Virus record (IMG/VR): IMGVR_UViG_2690316346_000011
From: a virus
Lineage: Duplodnaviria > Heunggongvirae > Uroviricota > Caudoviricetes
Length of the DNA stretch: 6,871 nt
Reading direction: 5' to 3' (one strand)
The notes below the pieces were generated by a model, which made no database searches, was not told the origin of the DNA, and saw nothing but the letters and a program-made list of their open reading frames with translations. Positions within the stretch are counted from its first letter, which is position 1. The number at the start of each line of letters is the position of its first letter. Shown here in pieces: positions 980-6,871 of this stretch. A program made the translations under genes and the position numbers.

Positions 980-1578
980 TACGCAAACTCCAGCAGCTGC
1001 GCGGCCACATTTTCGACTTGTTCCGGAGAGGAAAATTTACGGAACAGAATCCAGTTCCACAGCACATTCAGAACAGATTTATAAACCTGCTGAAACTCGG
1101 TTTCGTCCATATTCGCAAAAGCGATGGATTTTGCCCGACGCCCGCGGCTACCGTCCGGATAAAAATGTTCGGTGTAAAATCCAGCCTGAATGGTTACCCA
1201 CTCGCGAAAAGCCTCAAACGACTTTAGCAATGCCGTATCCCGGGTTCTGCGTGTCGCAACTGTATTCAGATATTGCTCTGCGGCTTCGCTCAGAGCTGGC
1301 GTATGTTCCCGACCTACTGATTCGCACAGGTAATCAACGAAACCAGACAGCAGTTCTCGTTCGCGAGGCGTGATCGCCCCACCGACCGGAGTCCAGTAAT
1401 CGAATCCCAGTTGCAGGAGTTTGAAAAAACGCTTGTGGAATGCGTAGTTACGCACACGCTTAAAGTCTGCGTGTATCCACTCACCTATTTTGATTTGATG
1501 CAGAAAATCGCAACTCTCCGGCGTCGCCGGGAGAAGTAATCCGGAAGAGGTTTGTTTGATCAGTTGTATATGCGCCAT
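979..1578 (-). CDS. Prophage protein of unknown function (199 aa, DUF1367-like by recollection)
   Basis: ORF 979..1578 starting MAHIQLIKQTSSGLLLPATPESCDFLHQIKIGEW; GGAGAA motif upstream of the ATG at 1578; stop overlaps the next start. Its 5' third is repeated at 4766-5072. The family name is from memory. Confidence 0.6.
   Translation of the reverse strand: MAHIQLIKQTSSGLLLPATPESCDFLHQIKIGEWIHADFKRVRNYAFHKRFFKLLQLGFDYWTPVGGAITPRERELLSGFVDYLCESVGREHTPALSEAAEQYLNTVATRRTRDTALLKSFEAFREWVTIQAGFYTEHFYPDGSRGRRAKSIAFANMDETEFQQVYKSVLNVLWNWILFRKFSSPEQVENVAAQLLEFA
1272..1578. repeat. Dispersed direct repeat (about 307 bp, about 97% identical) with 4766-5072
   Basis: Two copies of the DUF1367-like 5' region; flanks diverge beyond about 20 nt upstream of the ATG. 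Confidence 0.85.
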
Positions 1579-2759: not shown

Positions 2760-2801
2760 TGGATTTGCCCCTATATTTCCAGACATCTGTTATCACTTAA
2801 C
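2760..2801. repeat. IS2 terminal inverted repeat (right end of the element, window-left)
   Basis: Imperfect inverted match to 4050-4090. Confidence 0.8.
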
Positions 2802-3676
2802 CCATTACAAGCCCGCTGCCGCAGATATTCCCGTGGCGAGCGATAACCCAGCGCACTATGCGGATGCCATTCGTTATAATGCTCGAACGCCTCTGCAAGG
2901 TTCTTTGCTGCCGTTAACCCGTCTGGTTTGGGCATGATACTGATGTAGTCACGCTTTATCGTTTTCACGAAGCTCTCTGCTATTCCGTTACTCTCCGGAC
3001 TCCGCACCGCCGTGTTCTTCGGTTCAAGTCCCAACATCCGGGCGAACTGGCGTGTTTCATTAGCCCGGTAGCATGAACCATTATCCGTCAGCCACTCCAC
3101 TGGAGACGACGGAAGATCGTTGCCGAAGCGGCGTTCCACCGCTCCCAGCATGACGTCCTGTACTGTTTCACTGTTGAAGCCGCCGGTAGTCACCGCCCAG
3201 TGCAGTGCCTCACGATCACAGCAGTCCAGCGCGAACGTGACACGCAGTCTCTCTCCGTTATCACAGCAGAACTCGAACCCGTCAGAGCACCATCGCTGAT
3301 TGCTTTCTTTCACGGCCACTCTGCCTGTATGTGCCCGTTTCGATGGCGGTACAGCAGGTTTTCGCTCAAGCAACAGCGCATTCTGGCGCATGATCCGGTA
3401 AACACGTTTGGCATTGATCGCAGGCATACCATCAAGTTCTGCCTGTCTGCGAAGCAGCGCCCATACCCGACGATAACCATACGTGGGCAGCTCTCCGATA
3501 ACATGGTGTATACGGAGAAGCACATCCGTATCATCAGTGTGACGACTGCGGCGGCCATCCATCCAGTCATCGGTTCGTCTGAGAATGACGTGCAACTGCG
3601 CACGCGACACCCGGAGACAACGGCTGACTAAGCTTACTCCCCATCCCCGGGCAATAAGGGCGCGTGCGCTATCCAC
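2771..3676 (-). CDS. insD: IS2 InsD (OrfB transposase, 301 aa, GTG start)
   Basis: ORF 2771..3676, translation ...[38 protein letters not shown]...[12 protein letters not shown] typical of IS2 / IS3-family OrfB; overlaps insC in the -1 frame. Confidence 0.9.
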
Positions 3677-3999
3677 TTTTTTGCCCGTCCATATTCAACG
3701 GCTTCTTTGAGGAGTTCATTTTCCATCGTTTTCTTGCCGAGCAGGCGCTGGAGTTCTTTAATCTGCTTCATGGCGGCAGCAAGTTCAGAGGCAGGAACAA
3801 CCTGTTCTCCGGCGGCGACAGCAGTAAGACTTCCTTCCTGGTATTGCTTACGCCAGAGAAATAACTGGCTGGCTGCTACACCATGTTGCCGGGCAACGAG
3901 GGAGACCGTCATCCCCGGTTCAAAGCTCTGCTGAACAATTGCGATCTTTTCCTGTGTGGTACGCCGTCTGCGTTTCTCCGGCCCTAAGACATCAATCAT
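3634..3999 (-). CDS. insC: IS2 InsC (OrfA, 121 aa)
   Basis: Translation from ATG at 3999: [56 protein letters not shown]...; the ORF-track 5' extension to 4044 is rejected. Confidence 0.9.
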
Positions 4000-4049
4000 C
4001 TGTACTCCAATGACTAGTCTAAAAACTAGTATTAAGACTATCACTTATT

Positions 4050-4090
4050 TAAGTGATACTGGTTGTCTGGAGATTCAGGGGGCCAGTCTA
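4050..4090. repeat. IS2 terminal inverted repeat (left end of the element, window-right)
   Basis: TAAGTGATACTGGTTGTCTGGAGATTCAGGGGGCCAGTCTA, imperfect inverted match to 2760-2801. Confidence 0.8.
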
Positions 4091-4092
4091 GT

Positions 4093-4722
4093 GACCGACT
4101 GGCACGTCTTCGTAAGGAGCTAAGGCTACGCTGTAAGCAGAAACGCAAGTTCAGAGCGACTACGAACTCGAACCACAATCTGCCAGTTGCGCCAAATCTG
4201 CTGAACCAGACGTTCGCTCCTACAGCACCAAATCAGGTCTGGGTGGCGGACCTGACGTATGTTGCCACACAGGAGGGATGGTTGTACCTCGCTGGCATCA
4301 AAGATGTTTATACGTGCGAAATTGTCGGCTACGCCATGGGAGAGCGCATGACAAAAGAGCTGACAGGTAAAGCCCTGTTTATGGCGCTCAGGAGCCAGCG
4401 CCCACCTGCCGGGCTAATCCACCACTCTGATCGAGGTTCACAGTACTGCGCATACGATTACCGGGTCATACAGGAGCAGTCTGGTCTGAAAACATCAATG
4501 TCGCGTAAAGGTAACTGTTACGACAACGCTCCGATGGAAAGCTTCTGGGGAACGCTGAAAAATGAGAGCCTGAGCCACTATCGTTTTAATAACCGGGATG
4601 AAGCCATCTCAGTAATACGGGAATACATTGAGATTTTCTACAATCGTCAGCGTCGTCACTCTCGTCTGGGGAATATCTCCCCGGCAGCCTTCAGGGAAAA
4701 ATATCATCAGATGGCTGCTTAA
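4093..4722 (+). pseudogene. IS3-family transposase OrfB, N-terminally truncated
   Basis: Frame translation DRLARLRKELRLRCKQKRKF...VWVADLTYVATQEGWLYLAG...HSDRGSQYCAYDY...CYDNAPMESFWGTLKNE... has the DDE-region signatures of IS3-family OrfB. The ORF-track start at 4063 lies inside IS2 and is artefactual. Confidence 0.85.
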
Positions 4723-4765
4723 AAAAAGAACAAATGGTAGTGTCCGCTATTGCCAGTACACCTCA
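4715..4765. repeat. 51-bp terminal segment of the IS600-like element, repeated inverted at 6821-6871
   Basis: 4715-4765 is the exact reverse complement of 6821-6871 by direct comparison. Confidence 0.9.
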
Positions 4766-5072
4766 ATTGCTCTGCGGCTTCGCTCAGAGCTGGCGTATGT
4801 TCCCGGCCTACTGATTCACACAGGTAATCAACGAAACCGGACACCAGTTTTCGTTCGCGAGGCGTGATCGCCCCACCGACCGGAGTCCAGTAATCGAATC
4901 CCAGTTGCAGGAGTTTGAAAAAACGCTTGTGGAATGCGTAGTTACACACACGCTTAAAGTCTGCGTGTATCCACTCACCTATTTTGATTTGATGCAGAAA
5001 ATCGCAACTCTCCGGCGTCGCCGGGAGAAGTAATCCGGAAGAGGTTTGTTTGACCAGTTGTATATGTGCCAT
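4766..5072 (-). pseudogene. 5' fragment (about 102 codons) of a second DUF1367-like gene, truncated by the IS600-like end
   Basis: From ATG at 5072 (MAHIQLVKQTSS...) the sequence is co-linear with 1272-1578 with about 8 mismatches in about 307 nt by eye, then runs into IS sequence at 4765. The ORF-track N-terminal extension to 5114 is rejected. Confidence 0.8.
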
Positions 5073-5398: not shown

Positions 5399-5516
5399 CT
5401 TCAGAATCCTTCCAGATAAATAGCTCTCCCCTGTTCGGGGTCCATCCCTCTTCTCCCTGCGCGCTACTTAAGTGAGTCGATTCTATCTGCGAAGGTGCGC
5501 GAATCAAATTCACCGG

Positions 5517-5572
5517 AAATAAACAACAAAAAACCCGCCGAAACGCTGAGAGATCACAGCGATGGGCGGGTT
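5517..5572 (-). terminator. Rho-independent terminator downstream of hok
   Basis: Minus strand: outer stem AACCCGCC (5572-5565) / GGCGGGTT (5539-5532) with an inner CGCTG/CAGCG stem (5544-5548 / 5557-5561), followed by TTTTGTTGTTTATTT (complement of 5531-5517). Confidence 0.5.
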
Positions 5573-5611
5573 AAGTGCGGGTGCGTTGAGGATGCCTGAC
5601 ACATCAGAGGT

Positions 5612-5639
5612 GGGCGGGGATGGGATCAGCTCCCCGCCC
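5612..5639 (-). promoter_or_regulatory. GC-rich hairpin 9 nt past the hok stop (candidate fbi-type 3' element)
   Basis: GGGCGGGGA (5612-5620) / TCCCCGCCC (5631-5639) perfect 9-bp inverted repeat with a 10-nt loop and no following U-run; hok mRNAs are known to carry structured 3' ends. Confidence 0.35.
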
Positions 5640-5647
5640 GGTCACTC

Positions 5648-5803
5648 TTACTTCCTGGATTCGTAGTCTACGAAGACAGCGACCTCCGTCTGGCCGGTTC
5701 GGATTCGTACCTCACAGAGGTCTTTCCTCGTTACCAGTGCCGTCACTATGACGGTTAAACAGATGACGATCAGGGCGATTAACATCGCCTTTTGCTGCTT
5801 CAT
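5648..5803 (-). CDS. hok: Hok/Gef-family type I toxin (51 aa)
   Basis: Translation MKQQKAMLIALIVICLTVIVTALVTRKDLCEVRIRTGQTEVAVFVDYESRK: a single hydrophobic helix then the conserved RKDLCEVRIRTGQTEVA motif, close to HokD/Gef as recalled. ATG at 5803 has AAGGAG 9 nt upstream; the ORF-track in-frame extension to 5860 is rejected as the start. Confidence 0.9.
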   Translation of the reverse strand: MKQQKAMLIALIVICLTVIVTALVTRKDLCEVRIRTGQTEVAVFVDYESRK

Positions 5804-5979
5804 AGCCTGCTTCTCCTTGCCTTTCGGCATGTAAGAGGCTAACCTACATGTGCAAAGCATGAAATTGGCCTCAGATTAATGTTAAGCGTCTTGCCGGACG
5901 CGTAATGTTAACTGGGGCTTTTCTCTATCTGCCTTTTGGTGTTCATGCCTGAAGCAGATAGCCTCAAGCACCCGCAGTC

Positions 5980-6009
5980 ATTCTACTTACCTCGCCAATA
6001 TGAAATCAA
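5980..6009 (-). promoter_or_regulatory. Candidate sigma70 promoter for the hok transcript
   Basis: Minus strand -35 TTGATT (plus 6009-6004), 18-bp spacer, -10 TAGAAT (plus 5985-5980); predicted start near 5973, giving a leader of about 170 nt, in the range known for hok mRNAs. Motif match only. Confidence 0.3.
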
Positions 6010-6030
6010 TCAGAAAGGTGCCCCATAAAA

Positions 6031-6717
6031 TCACTCCTTCTCTTCTTTACCGTAGTGGAGTTGACCAATTTTGATAAGAGGGCGTCCCTGAGATTTGCGG
6101 TGTAGATTGGTATCGCGCAGAGAATACACACAGCCACAATATTCCTGCTGATAGAATTTTTCGCGCTTGCTGATTTCAATCATACGGGACGAGCCGCCCT
6201 GCTTGCGCCAGTTATAATCCCAGTACACCATGCCCGGATAATGCGCGACGGCTCGCCGCCCACAGTCGTTAACCTGCTGCATATTTTTCCAGCGTGAAAT
6301 GCCCAGTGAACTGCTGATCACACTGAAACCATTTTCAGCGGCGTACAGCGCTGTCCGCTCAAAACGCATGTCAAAACACATGGTGCAACGGATCCCTCGT
6401 TCGGGCTCCCATTCCATTCCTTTGGCTCGTTCAAACCAGTTGTCTGTGTCGTAATCAGCATCAATAAACGGCACGCCGTGTTGTTCAGCAAAGCGAATAT
6501 TCTCATCCTTACGAATTAAATACTCTTTCTGAGGATGAATGTTCGGGTTGTAGAAAAAGATGGTGTAGTCGATTCCCGAGGCCTGAAGCGCCTCCATCAC
6601 CTCACCGGAACATGGAGCACAGCAAGAGTGCAGTAGTAGTTTGTTTGCCCCGTTTGGGAGCTCCAATTTGGGCCGTTTGAAATCAGCAACTGTCATAAAT
6701 ATGTTTATTGGGGTCAT
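6031..6717 (-). CDS. queH: QueH-like protein (DUF208 epoxyqueuosine reductase family, 228 aa)
   Basis: Translation carries the family signatures as I recall them: [11 protein letters not shown] near the N-terminus, [19 protein letters not shown] and YCGCVYS (Cys ligand pattern of the QueH Fe-S site). Neither candidate ATG (6717, 6696) has a good Shine-Dalgarno, so the start is uncertain. Confidence 0.75.
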
Positions 6718-6820: not shown

Positions 6821-6871
6821 TGAGGTGTACTGGCAATAGCGGACACTACCATTTGTTCTTTTTTTAAGCAG
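6821..6871 (-). mobile_element. Terminus of a second IS600-like (IS3-family) copy, inverted; the element continues beyond the window
   Basis: TGAGGTGTACTGGCAATAGCGGACACTACC... begins with the TG terminus and is the exact reverse complement of 4715-4765, including the orfB stop region. Confidence 0.8.

What the first reader, a model, noticed from the sequence alone, without database searches (positions are those of the whole stretch)
5517..6010. Apparently intact hok-type type I toxin locus with its own promoter, leader and 3' structures
Chromosomal and prophage hok genes are often inactivated, but this one has an intact 51-codon ORF, a strong Shine-Dalgarno, a candidate promoter about 170 nt upstream, a GC hairpin right after the stop and an intrinsic terminator. 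A plus-strand candidate antisense promoter (-35 TTGCCT 5817-5822, 17-bp spacer, -10 TAACCT 5840-5845) would give a Sok-like RNA complementary to the hok leader. No mok-type overlapping frame is evident; the only upstream ATGs (5860, 5830) are in frame with hok, which differs from the classic R1 layout.
Basis: partly seen in the sequence, partly recalled or inferred. Interest (0 to 1): 0.5.

Follow-up and report, generated by a model that had tools for sequence, protein, structure and literature searches.

The report
Intact prophage hok/mok/sok toxin-antitoxin locus
This is a complete copy of the well-known hok/sok "host-killing" toxin–antisense RNA module, carried in a decayed lambda-like prophage and nearly identical to the hokW-sokW system of Shiga-toxin phages that has been tested in the lab, so it is real but ordinary.

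Summary
Window 5528-6009 (minus strand) is a complete hok/mok/sok type I toxin-antitoxin locus. It has a promoter, a 170-nt leader that matches Rfam RF01794 (117 bits, threshold 59), and a 51-codon hok (Pfam HOK_GEF, 4e-23). It also has a GC hairpin, a 3' fbi box that pairs with the 5' tac box (-21.5 kcal/mol), and a terminator.

The mRNA is 91% identical to hokW-sokW of phage 933W/Sp5, and Hok is identical at 50 of 51 residues. That system is an experimentally shown type I TA.

A mok frame is present: it starts at the in-frame ATG at 5860 (70 codons). This matches the annotated mokW and mokC and 23 of 30 related loci. R1 itself uses the +1 frame.

RefSeq already annotates the identical sequence as hokD next to queH. 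The source is a Shigella flexneri/E. coli lineage, in the nin region of an IS-riddled lambdoid prophage. It is already known and of low interest. Activity of this allele is inferred, not shown.

The parts
6004..6009 (-). hok promoter -35 (TTGATT)
   Evidence: Consensus scan, 9 of 12 matches with an 18-nt spacer. This hexamer lies outside the block conserved among relatives, so it is specific to this allele and junction.
5980..5985 (-). hok promoter -10 (TAGAAT)
   Evidence: A -10-like hexamer (TAGAAT, TATAAT, TACAAT or TATATT) sits at the same distance (6 nt) from the GGG(T/C)GCTTGAGG start in nearly all related loci.
5528..5973 (-). Predicted full-length hok (mok-hok) mRNA, about 445 nt
   Evidence: The 5' end is set by homology to the R1 hok mRNA +1 (GGCGCUUGAGG) and to the start of the Rfam model. 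The 3' end is placed at the terminator U-run. MFE -189.6 kcal/mol, z=-8.3, closed by a 5'-3' helix. Both ends are inferred, not mapped.
5962..5973 (-). tac (translational activator) box GGGUGCUUGAGG at the mRNA 5' end
   Evidence: Pairs with fbi at -21.5 kcal/mol. P(unpaired)=0.00 in the full-length fold. In truncated RNA it instead forms the 5' hairpin GUGCUUGAGGC/GCUUCAGGCAU.
5925..5961 (-). 5' leader hairpin (GCUAUCUGC...GCAGAUAG)
   Evidence: Helix 2: 92% of cells paired across 30 loci, 2 pairs with compensatory changes. Part of the Rfam RF01794 consensus structure.
5912..5918 (-). ucb / anti-SD box GCCCCAG, pairs with the mok Shine-Dalgarno in the closed form
   Evidence: Full-length fold. 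Helix 5: 90% of cells paired, 6 pairs with changes on both sides. Named by analogy with R1 (PMC9841398).
5869..5872 (-). mok Shine-Dalgarno GAGG
   Evidence: Invariant GAGG(C) in all 30 aligned loci, 8 nt upstream of the mok ATG. Paired to ucb in the full-length fold.
5648..5860 (-). mok leader frame, 70 codons, in frame with hok and sharing its stop
   Evidence: ORF listed. The start aligns with mokW (933W), mokC (K-12) and R1 mok. The N-terminal extension is MLCTCRLASYMPKGKEKQA, against MokW MLNTCRLASYVPKGKEKQA.
5831..5841 (-). dcb-like box UAGCCUCUUAC, can pair with the mok SD to form the Sok target hairpin; overlaps the sok -10 on the other strand
   Evidence: Nearly invariant in 30 loci. 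The isolated segment 5875-5829 folds into the GAGGC/GCCUC hairpin at -13.6 kcal/mol. Its 5 core pairs are invariant, so covariation says nothing either way.
5813..5818 (-). hok Shine-Dalgarno AAGGAG
   Evidence: CAAGGAG is conserved in the alignment.
5648..5803 (-). hok toxin gene, 51 codons plus stop
   Evidence: Pfam HOK_GEF 4.3e-23. 50 of 51 residues identical to HokW of 933W. Annotated 'type I toxin-antitoxin system toxin HokD', WP_014532198.1, in the identical RefSeq locus.
5613..5640 (-). GC-rich hairpin just after the hok stop (CGGGCGGGG...CCCCGCCC)
   Evidence: Full-length fold. A hairpin is present at this position in all relatives, with 3 pairs changed on both sides. Alignment indels lower the paired percentage to 66% (helix 16).
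5579..5591 (-). fbi (fold-back inhibition) box CCUCAACGCACCC, complementary to tac
   Evidence: RNAduplex gives 12 bp with one bulged C, -21.5 kcal/mol. Coupled changes in relatives: tac position 4 U-A in 18 sequences versus C-G in 10; GAGA/UCUC in Photorhabdus and GAAG/CUUC in Citrobacter.
5528..5572 (-). Intrinsic terminator (AACCCGCC ... GGCGGGUU + U-run) with a nested hairpin in an enlarged loop
   Evidence: structure. Relatives carry the compact form AACCCGC-TTCG-GCGGGTTTTT. This allele has about 25 extra nt in the loop.
5817..5822 (+). sok promoter -35 (TTGCCT)
   Evidence: Sequence checked. Positionally homologous to R1 TTGCGC and hokC-group TTGACC.
5840..5845 (+). sok promoter -10 (TAACCT)
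   Evidence: Identical to the sokW -10, whose mutation abolished antitoxin activity (primers YO-421/422 in PMC8621323). Only 3 of 6 matches to consensus, and not found by the scanner.
5852..5922 (+). Predicted Sok antisense RNA, about 71 nt: single-stranded 5' tail covering the mok start, plus a terminator hairpin and U-run
   Evidence: Coordinates transferred from the annotated sokW of phage 933W through the alignment. Fold -30.2 kcal/mol, z=-4.9. The transcript itself is not shown here.

Best explanation
The region is a complete, sequence-intact hok/mok/sok type I toxin-antitoxin module of the hokW/hokC/hokD clade. It sits in the nin region of a lambdoid (Rac-like) prophage remnant.

Inferred mechanism, by homology with R1 hok/sok and Sp5 hokW-sokW:
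1. A constitutive promoter makes a stable mRNA of about 445 nt.
2. The 5' tac box of that mRNA is locked to the 3' fbi box, and the mok Shine-Dalgarno is sequestered by the ucb anti-SD. The full-length RNA is therefore neither translated nor bound by Sok.
3. Slow 3' trimming removes fbi and the leader refolds.
4. Ribosomes can then start at the mok AUG (5860) and read across the hok SD. This produces the Hok membrane toxin, here directly as an in-frame 70-aa Mok-Hok product and/or as the 51-aa Hok by coupled initiation.
5. The unstable ~71-nt Sok RNA is made from the opposite strand (5852-5922). It pairs with the mok initiation region, blocks translation and triggers RNase III cleavage.
6. Toxin therefore appears only when Sok synthesis stops, for example on loss of the element, transcription shut-off or prophage induction.

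Shown here: presence, integrity and conservation of every sequence and structure element. Inferred: transcription, processing, toxicity and the physiological trigger.
For: - Family models: Pfam HOK_GEF 4e-23. Rfam RF01794 covers the whole leader 5973-5798 at 117 bits against a gathering score of 59. PHROG 251.
- Annotation of relatives: the identical 701-bp stretch is annotated hokD next to QueH in two RefSeq genomes.
- Similarity to a tested system: 91.4% nucleotide identity over the mRNA and 50 of 51 aa to the mokW/hokW/sokW locus of phage 933W. In the Sp5 copy, HokW was shown to be toxic, SokW to be the antitoxin (dependent on its -10), and both RNAs were seen on Northern blots (PMC8621323).
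- tac-fbi helix: -21.5 kcal/mol, with coupled compensatory changes across Escherichia, Kluyvera, Citrobacter and Photorhabdus loci.
- Whole-mRNA fold: z=-8.3, closed by the 5'-3' helix.
- Covariation: projected on 30 loci, the structure is 85% paired against about 40% for slid controls, with 30 pairs changed on both sides against 9-15 in controls.
- Sok RNA fold: z=-4.9.
- mok start and SD are conserved in all 30 loci.
- No IS element or frameshift lies inside 5528-6009. The nearest IS600 end is at 4765.
Against: - There are no expression or toxicity data for this allele.
- The sok -10 (TAACCT) and -35 (TTGCCT) are poor consensus matches and were not picked up by the promoter scan.
- Simple MFE folding of 3'-truncated RNAs did not reproduce opening of the mok SD. 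The activation step therefore rests on homology with R1.
- Structurally intact chromosomal hok loci (hokA, hokB, hokC from various strains) were reported not to mediate post-segregational killing or rifampicin activation (summarised in bioRxiv 10.1101/2025.08.07.668861).
- The terminator loop carries an unusual insertion of about 25 nt.
- The -35 hexamer lies outside the conserved module.
- The structure tested was derived from the window sequence itself, which inflates the paired percentage.
Confidence: 0.85

Rival explanations
1. The locus is sequence-intact but physiologically inert. It is a selfish passenger of a dead prophage: it is transcribed and kept silent by Sok, is never activated, and confers neither stabilisation nor lysis help nor phage defence.
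For: - The surrounding prophage is badly decayed. IS1, IS2 and IS600 lie within 800 bp, a DUF1367 gene is truncated and duplicated, and the segment is bracketed by inverted IS600 ends. The lysis-assist role shown for hokW in the inducible Sp5 phage therefore cannot apply.
- Intact chromosomal hok loci tested earlier did not give post-segregational killing.
Against: - All regulatory elements and the ORF are preserved without a single disabling change, although neighbouring genes are disrupted.
- Other copies in the same kind of genome have visibly decayed. L009 has lost the tac box. This shows that decay does happen when selection or addiction is absent.
- Hok peptides from diverse locations were toxic when tested (abstract of bioRxiv 10.1101/2025.08.07.668861).
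Confidence: 0.12
2. This is a K-12-type hokD (relF): a hok ORF without its own antisense control, expressed as the tail of an upstream operon (here queH).
For: - PGAP names the protein HokD.
- The queH stop (6031) lies only about 20 nt upstream of the hok -35, so read-through is conceivable.
Against: - K-12-type hokD loci (L010, L038) have the relE 3' end in place of the leader and lack tac, ucb, mok and the sok promoter.
- The window has all of these, with a full-length Rfam leader match.
- The architecture is that of hokW/hokC, not of relBEF-hokD.
Confidence: 0.02
3. The ORF, hairpins and hexamers are a chance coincidence or a pseudogene fragment.
For: The individual promoter hexamers are weak. 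The scan found 2 promoter-like sites against 0.7 expected.
Against: - Rfam E=6e-27, Pfam E=4e-23, mRNA fold z=-8.3, and hundreds of homologous annotated loci.
Confidence: 0.01

Closest known systems
hokW-mokW-sokW of Stx2 phages 933W / Sakai prophage 5 (Plunkett et al. 1999 annotation AF125520; Takada et al. 2021, PMC8621323)
   Same: - 91% identical over the whole mRNA; Hok identical at 50 of 51 aa (R50 here, E50 in HokW).
- Same in-frame 70-codon mok.
- Identical sok -35 and -10 hexamers, Sok terminator hairpin, tac and fbi boxes.
- Both are carried by lambdoid prophages.
   Different: - Position in the phage genome differs: the nin region between queH and DUF1367/Q here, against the far right end next to L0136/L0139 in 933W.
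- The flanks diverge upstream of the -10 and right after fbi. This allele has a terminator that 933W lacks at that place.
- There are 7-8 substitutions in the single-stranded 5' tail of Sok and the mok start region, so Sok specificity may differ.
- The host prophage here is defective.
hok/mok/sok (parB) of plasmid R1, the paradigm type I TA (Gerdes and co-workers; Le Rhun et al. 2022, PMC9841398)
   Same: - Same order of elements: promoter, tac, 5' hairpin, ucb, Sok target, SDmok, mok, dcb, SDhok, hok, GC hairpin, fbi and terminator.
- The antisense promoter is embedded in the mok region.
- Same 19-codon distance from the mok start to the hok start.
   Different: - The Hok protein is only about 44% identical.
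- R1 mok is in the +1 frame relative to hok (58-nt offset), whereas here it is in frame (57 nt).
- The Sok target hairpin carries an 18-nt longer stem here.
- R1 is plasmid-borne, with a proven post-segregational killing role.
hokC (gef)/mokC/sokC of E. coli K-12
   Same: - In-frame mok (mokC 16751-16960 and hokC 16751-16903 share a stop).
- Same leader (Rfam RF01794 is subtitled CssrC) and the same tac sequence.
   Different: - In K-12 the 3' region after the GC hairpin no longer aligns with intact relatives, no fbi box is found there, and IS186 is annotated about 20 bp downstream.
- Here fbi and the terminator are intact.
hokD (relF) of the K-12 Qin prophage, the name PGAP gives this protein
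   Same: The toxin sequence is about 90% identical (L010). The 3' UTR with fbi and terminator is homologous.
   Different: K-12 hokD has no leader, mok or sok and is fused behind relBE. The window locus is a full module, so 'hokD' describes the protein only, not the architecture.

Membership tests
[quoted passage not shown] | Small (~50 aa) Hok/Gef toxin with an N-terminal transmembrane helix and a conserved C-terminal domain | tested here: met
   Pfam PF01848 HOK_GEF 81 bits, E=4.3e-23, covering residues 6-47. PHROG 251. The NCBIfam Hok subfamily scores 55 bits, below its strict cutoff of 73. RefSeq names the identical protein HokD.
[quoted passage not shown] | mok leader ORF with its own SD, starting about 57 nt upstream of hok and reading across the hok SD (translational coupling) | tested here: met
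   ATG 5860 is preceded by GAGG and aligns with the mokW, mokC and R1 mok starts. It is conserved in 30 of 30 loci. The frame relative to hok is 0 in 23, +1 in 4 and +2 in 3. Coupling itself was not tested.
[quoted passage not shown] | Antisense Sok RNA gene on the opposite strand, complementary to the mok initiation region, with its promoter inside the mok/hok leader | tested here: met
   At sequence level: -35 TTGCCT and -10 TAACCT with a 17-nt spacer, identical to sokW, whose -10 was shown to be required. The predicted 71-nt RNA folds with z=-4.9. The actual transcript is not testable with these tools.
[quoted passage not shown] | Long-range tac (5' end) - fbi (3' end) pairing that locks the full-length mRNA | tested here: met
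   12 bp, -21.5 kcal/mol. It closes the MFE structure. Coupled compensatory substitutions occur in relatives.
[quoted passage not shown] | ucb anti-SD pairing with the mok SD in the closed form | tested here: met
   GCCCCAG (5918-5912) pairs with CUGAGGC (5874-5868) in the MFE. The helix is 90% paired, with 6 pairs changed on both sides (helix 5).
[quoted passage not shown] | Refolding after 3' processing (tac/ucb stem, mok SD/dcb target hairpin) that activates translation and Sok binding | tested here: inconclusive
   The SDmok/dcb hairpin can form (-13.6 kcal/mol), but its core pairs are invariant, so there is no covariation signal. MFE folds of truncated RNAs kept the mok SD paired to ucb. 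3' processing cannot be tested in silico.
[quoted passage not shown] | Toxicity of Hok and neutralisation by Sok | not testable with these tools
   Shown for HokW/SokW, which differs by 1 of 51 residues (PMC8621323). Not shown for this allele.
Rfam RF01794 (sok / hok mRNA leader) | Score at or above the curated gathering threshold over the full model | tested here: met
   117 bits against 59, model positions 1-157 of 157, window 5973-5798. The match lies on the hok-mRNA strand, not on the Sok strand.
K-12-type hokD (relBEF-hokD arrangement) | hok ORF lacking leader, mok and sok, placed directly behind relE | tested here: not met
   The window has the full leader and sok promoter, and the upstream gene is queH, not relE.

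The most novel reading that the evidence does not exclude
Here mok is in frame with hok, as in 23 of 30 relatives. Every ribosome that starts at the mok AUG would therefore make a 70-aa, N-terminally extended Hok (Mok-Hok) rather than a separate leader peptide. The locus could thus produce two toxin isoforms with different potency, membrane insertion or timing. The frame polymorphism among close relatives (0, +1, +2) would then reflect different regulatory designs rather than neutral drift. A second, related possibility concerns the invariant UACG at the Tyr47 codon (A5664). This is the site homologous to the low-level TadA A-to-I edits reported for hokC, hokD and hokE. Editing there would add a Tyr-to-Cys switch of toxicity to this prophage copy.
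Probability: 0.1. Interest if true: 0.4.

Novelty: already known. Interest (0 to 1): 0.1.

Why it matters
It matters little beyond correct annotation. The locus is one more intact copy of one of the best-studied type I toxin-antitoxin systems. It lies in a genomic setting (lambdoid prophage) where hok is already known to be enriched, and it is one amino acid away from an experimentally characterised system.

Its practical value is threefold:
- It shows that the PGAP label 'hokD' hides a full hokW-type module, with mok and sok left unannotated.
- It gives a clean example of tac-fbi covariation and of mok frame variability.
- It marks a toxin gene that could complicate cloning or deletion of this prophage segment.

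Tried and rejected
1. The simple terminator scan found nothing in 5400-6150. This was rejected as a false negative: the hairpin has a long, internally structured loop, and it appears in the thermodynamic fold.

2. I tried to reproduce the 'open', translatable conformation by MFE and partition-function folding of RNAs cut at positions 395, 382, 375 and 365. The 5' end switched to the known metastable-type hairpin, but the mok SD stayed paired. The activation step is therefore not supported computationally and rests on homology.

3. I first labelled the 3'-UTR segment 5605-5592 as 'dcb'. On reading PMC9841398, dcb turns out to lie at the sok-promoter region (UAGCCUCUUAC, 5841-5831), so I dropped that label. 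The 3'-UTR segment is only a moderately supported extra long-range helix with the mok start region (60-62% paired, helices 6-7).

4. Covariation for the SDmok/dcb target hairpin was uninformative because the core pairs are invariant.

5. The MAFFT alignment mis-registers the Photorhabdus fbi by one column, because this clade has a bulged C. The counts for tac positions 7-12 therefore understate pairing. Per-sequence duplexes were used instead.

6. RNAduplex on long flanks of loci that lack the tac motif gave meaningless long duplexes. Only the printed sequences from that call were used.

7. I considered the K-12 relBEF-hokD arrangement and rejected it.

8. A covariance model of the whole mRNA was not built because the alignment (404 columns) exceeds the 400-column limit.

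Full report
**Observation**

On the minus strand, window 5803..5648 encodes a 51-residue peptide, MKQQKAMLIALIVICLTVIVTALVTRKDLCEVRIRTGQTEVAVFVDYESRK. It matches Pfam HOK_GEF at E=4.3e-23 and PHROG 251 'MokW-like host killing' at 1e-32.

- AAGGAG lies 9 nt before the ATG.
- A sigma-70-like promoter is present (TTGATT 6009-6004, 18 nt, TAGAAT 5985-5980). It places +1 at about G5973, 170 nt upstream of the hok ATG.
- A GC hairpin sits at 5640-5613.
- A hairpin plus U-run sits at 5572-5528.
- The plus-strand hexamers TTGCCT 5817-5822 and TAACCT 5840-5845 are there with a 17-nt spacer.

The simple terminator scan missed the terminator because its loop is long.

The signal is far beyond chance. The Rfam model RF01794 matches 5973-5798 over its full length at 117 bits against a gathering score of 59, E=6e-27. 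That match is on the hok-mRNA strand, because the Rfam 'sok' model in effect describes the hok leader.

**What it is**

The 701 bp around the locus are 100% identical to two RefSeq E. coli chromosomes (FDAARGOS_943 and FDAARGOS_944). There the ORF is annotated 'type I toxin-antitoxin system toxin HokD' (WP_014532198.1), next to an epoxyqueuosine reductase QueH gene. Neither mok nor sok is annotated.

Partial matches occur in 4731 of 5426 complete E. coli genomes and in 79 phage records.

The best-documented relative is the mokW/hokW/sokW locus of Stx2 phage 933W / Sakai prophage 5. Over the aligned mRNA it is 91.4% identical, and Hok differs at one residue, R50 here against E50.

Takada et al. 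2021 (PMC8621323) showed the following for the Sp5 copy:
- HokW is toxic.
- SokW counteracts it, and this depends on the SokW -10. In their 'pro-less' construct TAGGTTA on the hok strand is replaced, which is TAACCT(A) on the sok strand. This is the same hexamer as window 5840-5845.
- Both RNAs are detectable.
- HokW goes to the inner membrane.
- The system speeds lysis and doubles phage release after induction.

**Anatomy and structure**

Alignment with 933W, K-12 hokC and an R1-type plasmid hok locus shows that every named element of the hok paradigm is present and in order:
- the -10 hexamer
- the mRNA 5' end GGGUGCUUGAGG (tac)
- the 5' hairpin
- AGCCCC (ucb, the anti-SD)
- the Sok-target hairpin
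- GAGG (mok SD)
- the mok ATG
- UAGCCUCUUAC (dcb, overlapping the sok -10)
- CAAGGAG (hok SD)
- hok
- the GC hairpin
- CCUCAACGCACCC (fbi)

tac and fbi form 12 bp with one bulge, at -21.5 kcal/mol. The predicted 445-nt transcript folds to -189.6 kcal/mol (z=-8.3), and the 5'-3' helix closes the whole molecule. In that fold the mok SD is paired to ucb and the hok start region is buried.

In 47 related loci fetched from Escherichia, Shigella, Kluyvera, Citrobacter, Photorhabdus and others, tac and fbi change together:
- GGGUGC/GCACCC against GGGCGC/GCGCCC
- GAGG/CCUC against GAGA/UCUC against GAAG/CUUC

I projected the window's structure onto a 30-locus alignment. It is 85% paired against about 40% when partners are slid. 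It has 30 pairs changed on both sides against 9-15 in the controls. One caveat applies: the structure was derived from one of the aligned sequences.

The predicted Sok RNA runs 5852-5922 on the plus strand, with coordinates transferred from the 933W sokW annotation. It has a single-stranded 5' tail covering the mok start, followed by a strong terminator hairpin (-30.2 kcal/mol, z=-4.9).

**The mok question**

In fact the ATG at 5860 is preceded by an invariant GAGG and aligns exactly with the mok start of mokW, mokC and R1.

In 933W and in K-12, the annotated mok and hok share one stop codon, so they are in frame. In R1 proper, the mok AUG is at 116-118 and the hok AUG at 174-176, an offset of 58 nt, which is the +1 frame (PMC9841398).

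Among 30 loci the offset is:
- 57 nt (in frame) in 23
- 58 nt (+1) in 4
- 56 nt (+2) in 3, giving a 19-codon mok ending in an ATGA overlap with the hok start

Even an R1-type plasmid variant has the in-frame version. This variability fits the published view that translation of mok up to the hok start matters and the Mok product does not. So mok is present, and the layout is the usual one for this clade.

**Context**

The locus lies between queH (6717-6031) and a phage ORF of unknown function (5398-5111, PHROG 340). After that come DUF1367, YbcO and a DUF1133/Q-like antiterminator. In the uninterrupted E. coli relative the upstream genes are cI/cro-like, ydaT and ydaV, which identifies the nin region of a Rac-like lambdoid prophage.

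In the window the prophage is broken. IS1 (1969-2666), IS2 (2771-4044) and a truncated IS600 (4063-4765) follow. The 5' part of DUF1367 occurs twice. The 2055-bp segment carrying queH and hok is bracketed by perfect inverted 51-nt IS600 ends.

The window is 99.6% identical to Shigella flexneri SFBU1023 across this segment, including the IS600 junctions. No IS element or frameshift touches 5528-6009.

**Mechanism and confidence**

With about 0.85 confidence I hold that this is a functional-looking hok/mok/sok module regulated as in R1 and hokW:
1. The full-length mRNA is locked.
2. 3' trimming unlocks it.
3. Translation of hok depends on mok.
4. Sok blocks that translation by antisense pairing, with duplex cleavage.

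Presence and conservation of the elements are shown. Transcription, processing, toxicity and the trigger are inferred.

The physiological role in a dead prophage is uncertain. Addiction to, or stabilisation of, the segment is the most plausible role, and phage exclusion is possible. The lysis-assist role of hokW cannot apply without an inducible phage. The main rival, at about 0.12, is that the module is intact but never activated, as was reported for several chromosomal hok loci.

**Novelty**

The finding is already known. The exact sequence is in RefSeq with the toxin annotated. The family, its RNA elements, its enrichment in prophages and a near-identical experimentally tested system are all published. 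Interest is 0.1.

Noticed in passing
window 4715-4765 and 6821-6871: A perfect 51-nt inverted repeat, formed by IS600 terminal sequences in opposite orientation. It brackets the 2055-bp segment that carries queH, hok/sok, ORF95 and the 5' part of DUF1367. The segment looks like a composite-transposon-like unit or the product of an IS600-mediated inversion. The same junctions occur in S. flexneri SFBU1023.
   Followed up: partly
window 1272-1571 and 4766-5065: A 300-nt direct repeat (98% identical) made of two copies of the 5' part of the DUF1367 gene, one on each side of the IS1-IS2-IS600 cluster. The copy next to hok is truncated at the IS600 end. The full copy is preceded by a different small ORF (1862-1650, PHROG 1813). 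This suggests IS-mediated recombination between two lambdoid prophages.
   Followed up: partly
window 5663-5665 (Tyr47 codon UAC; A5664), within CUACGAA 5666-5660: TACGAA is invariant at nucleotide level in all 30 aligned hok loci and contains the UACG motif of TadA. Low-level A-to-I (Tyr-to-Cys) editing is reported for hokC, hokD and hokE at the position equivalent to HokB Cys46. A local +/-25-nt fold presents CUACGAA as a 7-nt loop, but the hairpin is weak (z=-1.4). This is a candidate editing site and has not been tested.
   Followed up: partly
window 5528-5572: The hok terminator of this allele has about 25 extra nt (forming a nested hairpin) in place of the TTCG tetraloop seen in most hokD/hokW-type relatives (AACCCGC-TTCG-GCGGGTTTTT). 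The effect on termination or 3' processing is unknown.
   Followed up: no
window 5480-5507 (minus strand): A second promoter-like site lies immediately after the hok terminator and upstream of ORF95 (5398-5111). It has the same hexamers as the hok promoter (TTGATT, 16 nt, TAGAAT).
   Followed up: no
window 6031-6717 (minus strand): A prophage-borne epoxyqueuosine reductase QueH gene (Pfam PF02677, 1.9e-65; PHROG 3217) lies directly upstream of hok. Its stop is about 20 nt from the hok -35. It is a tRNA-modification gene in the nin region of a lambdoid prophage.
   Followed up: no
related loci L009 (E. coli ECMA0423) and L010/L038: Decayed or rearranged paralogues exist in the same kind of genome. 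L009 keeps hok, mok, the sok region and fbi but has lost most of the tac box (GCATGTGGCTATG instead of GCGGGTGCTTGAGGCTATC). L010 and L038 are the relE-fused hokD form without a leader.
   Followed up: partly
alignment A1 (30 related loci); L004 (R1-type plasmid): The reading frame of mok relative to hok is not conserved. It is 0 in 23 loci, +1 in 4 and +2 in 3; the +2 loci have a 19-codon mok that ends in an ATGA overlap with the hok start. An R1-type plasmid variant has mok in frame, whereas R1 itself uses the +1 frame.
   Followed up: yes
window 5798-5973: The Rfam family RF01794, named 'sok antitoxin', matches on the hok-mRNA (minus) strand, and its consensus ends at the hok AUG. It therefore models the hok leader rather than the antisense RNA. 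Automated annotation based on it would place 'sok' on the wrong strand and make it too long.
   Followed up: no
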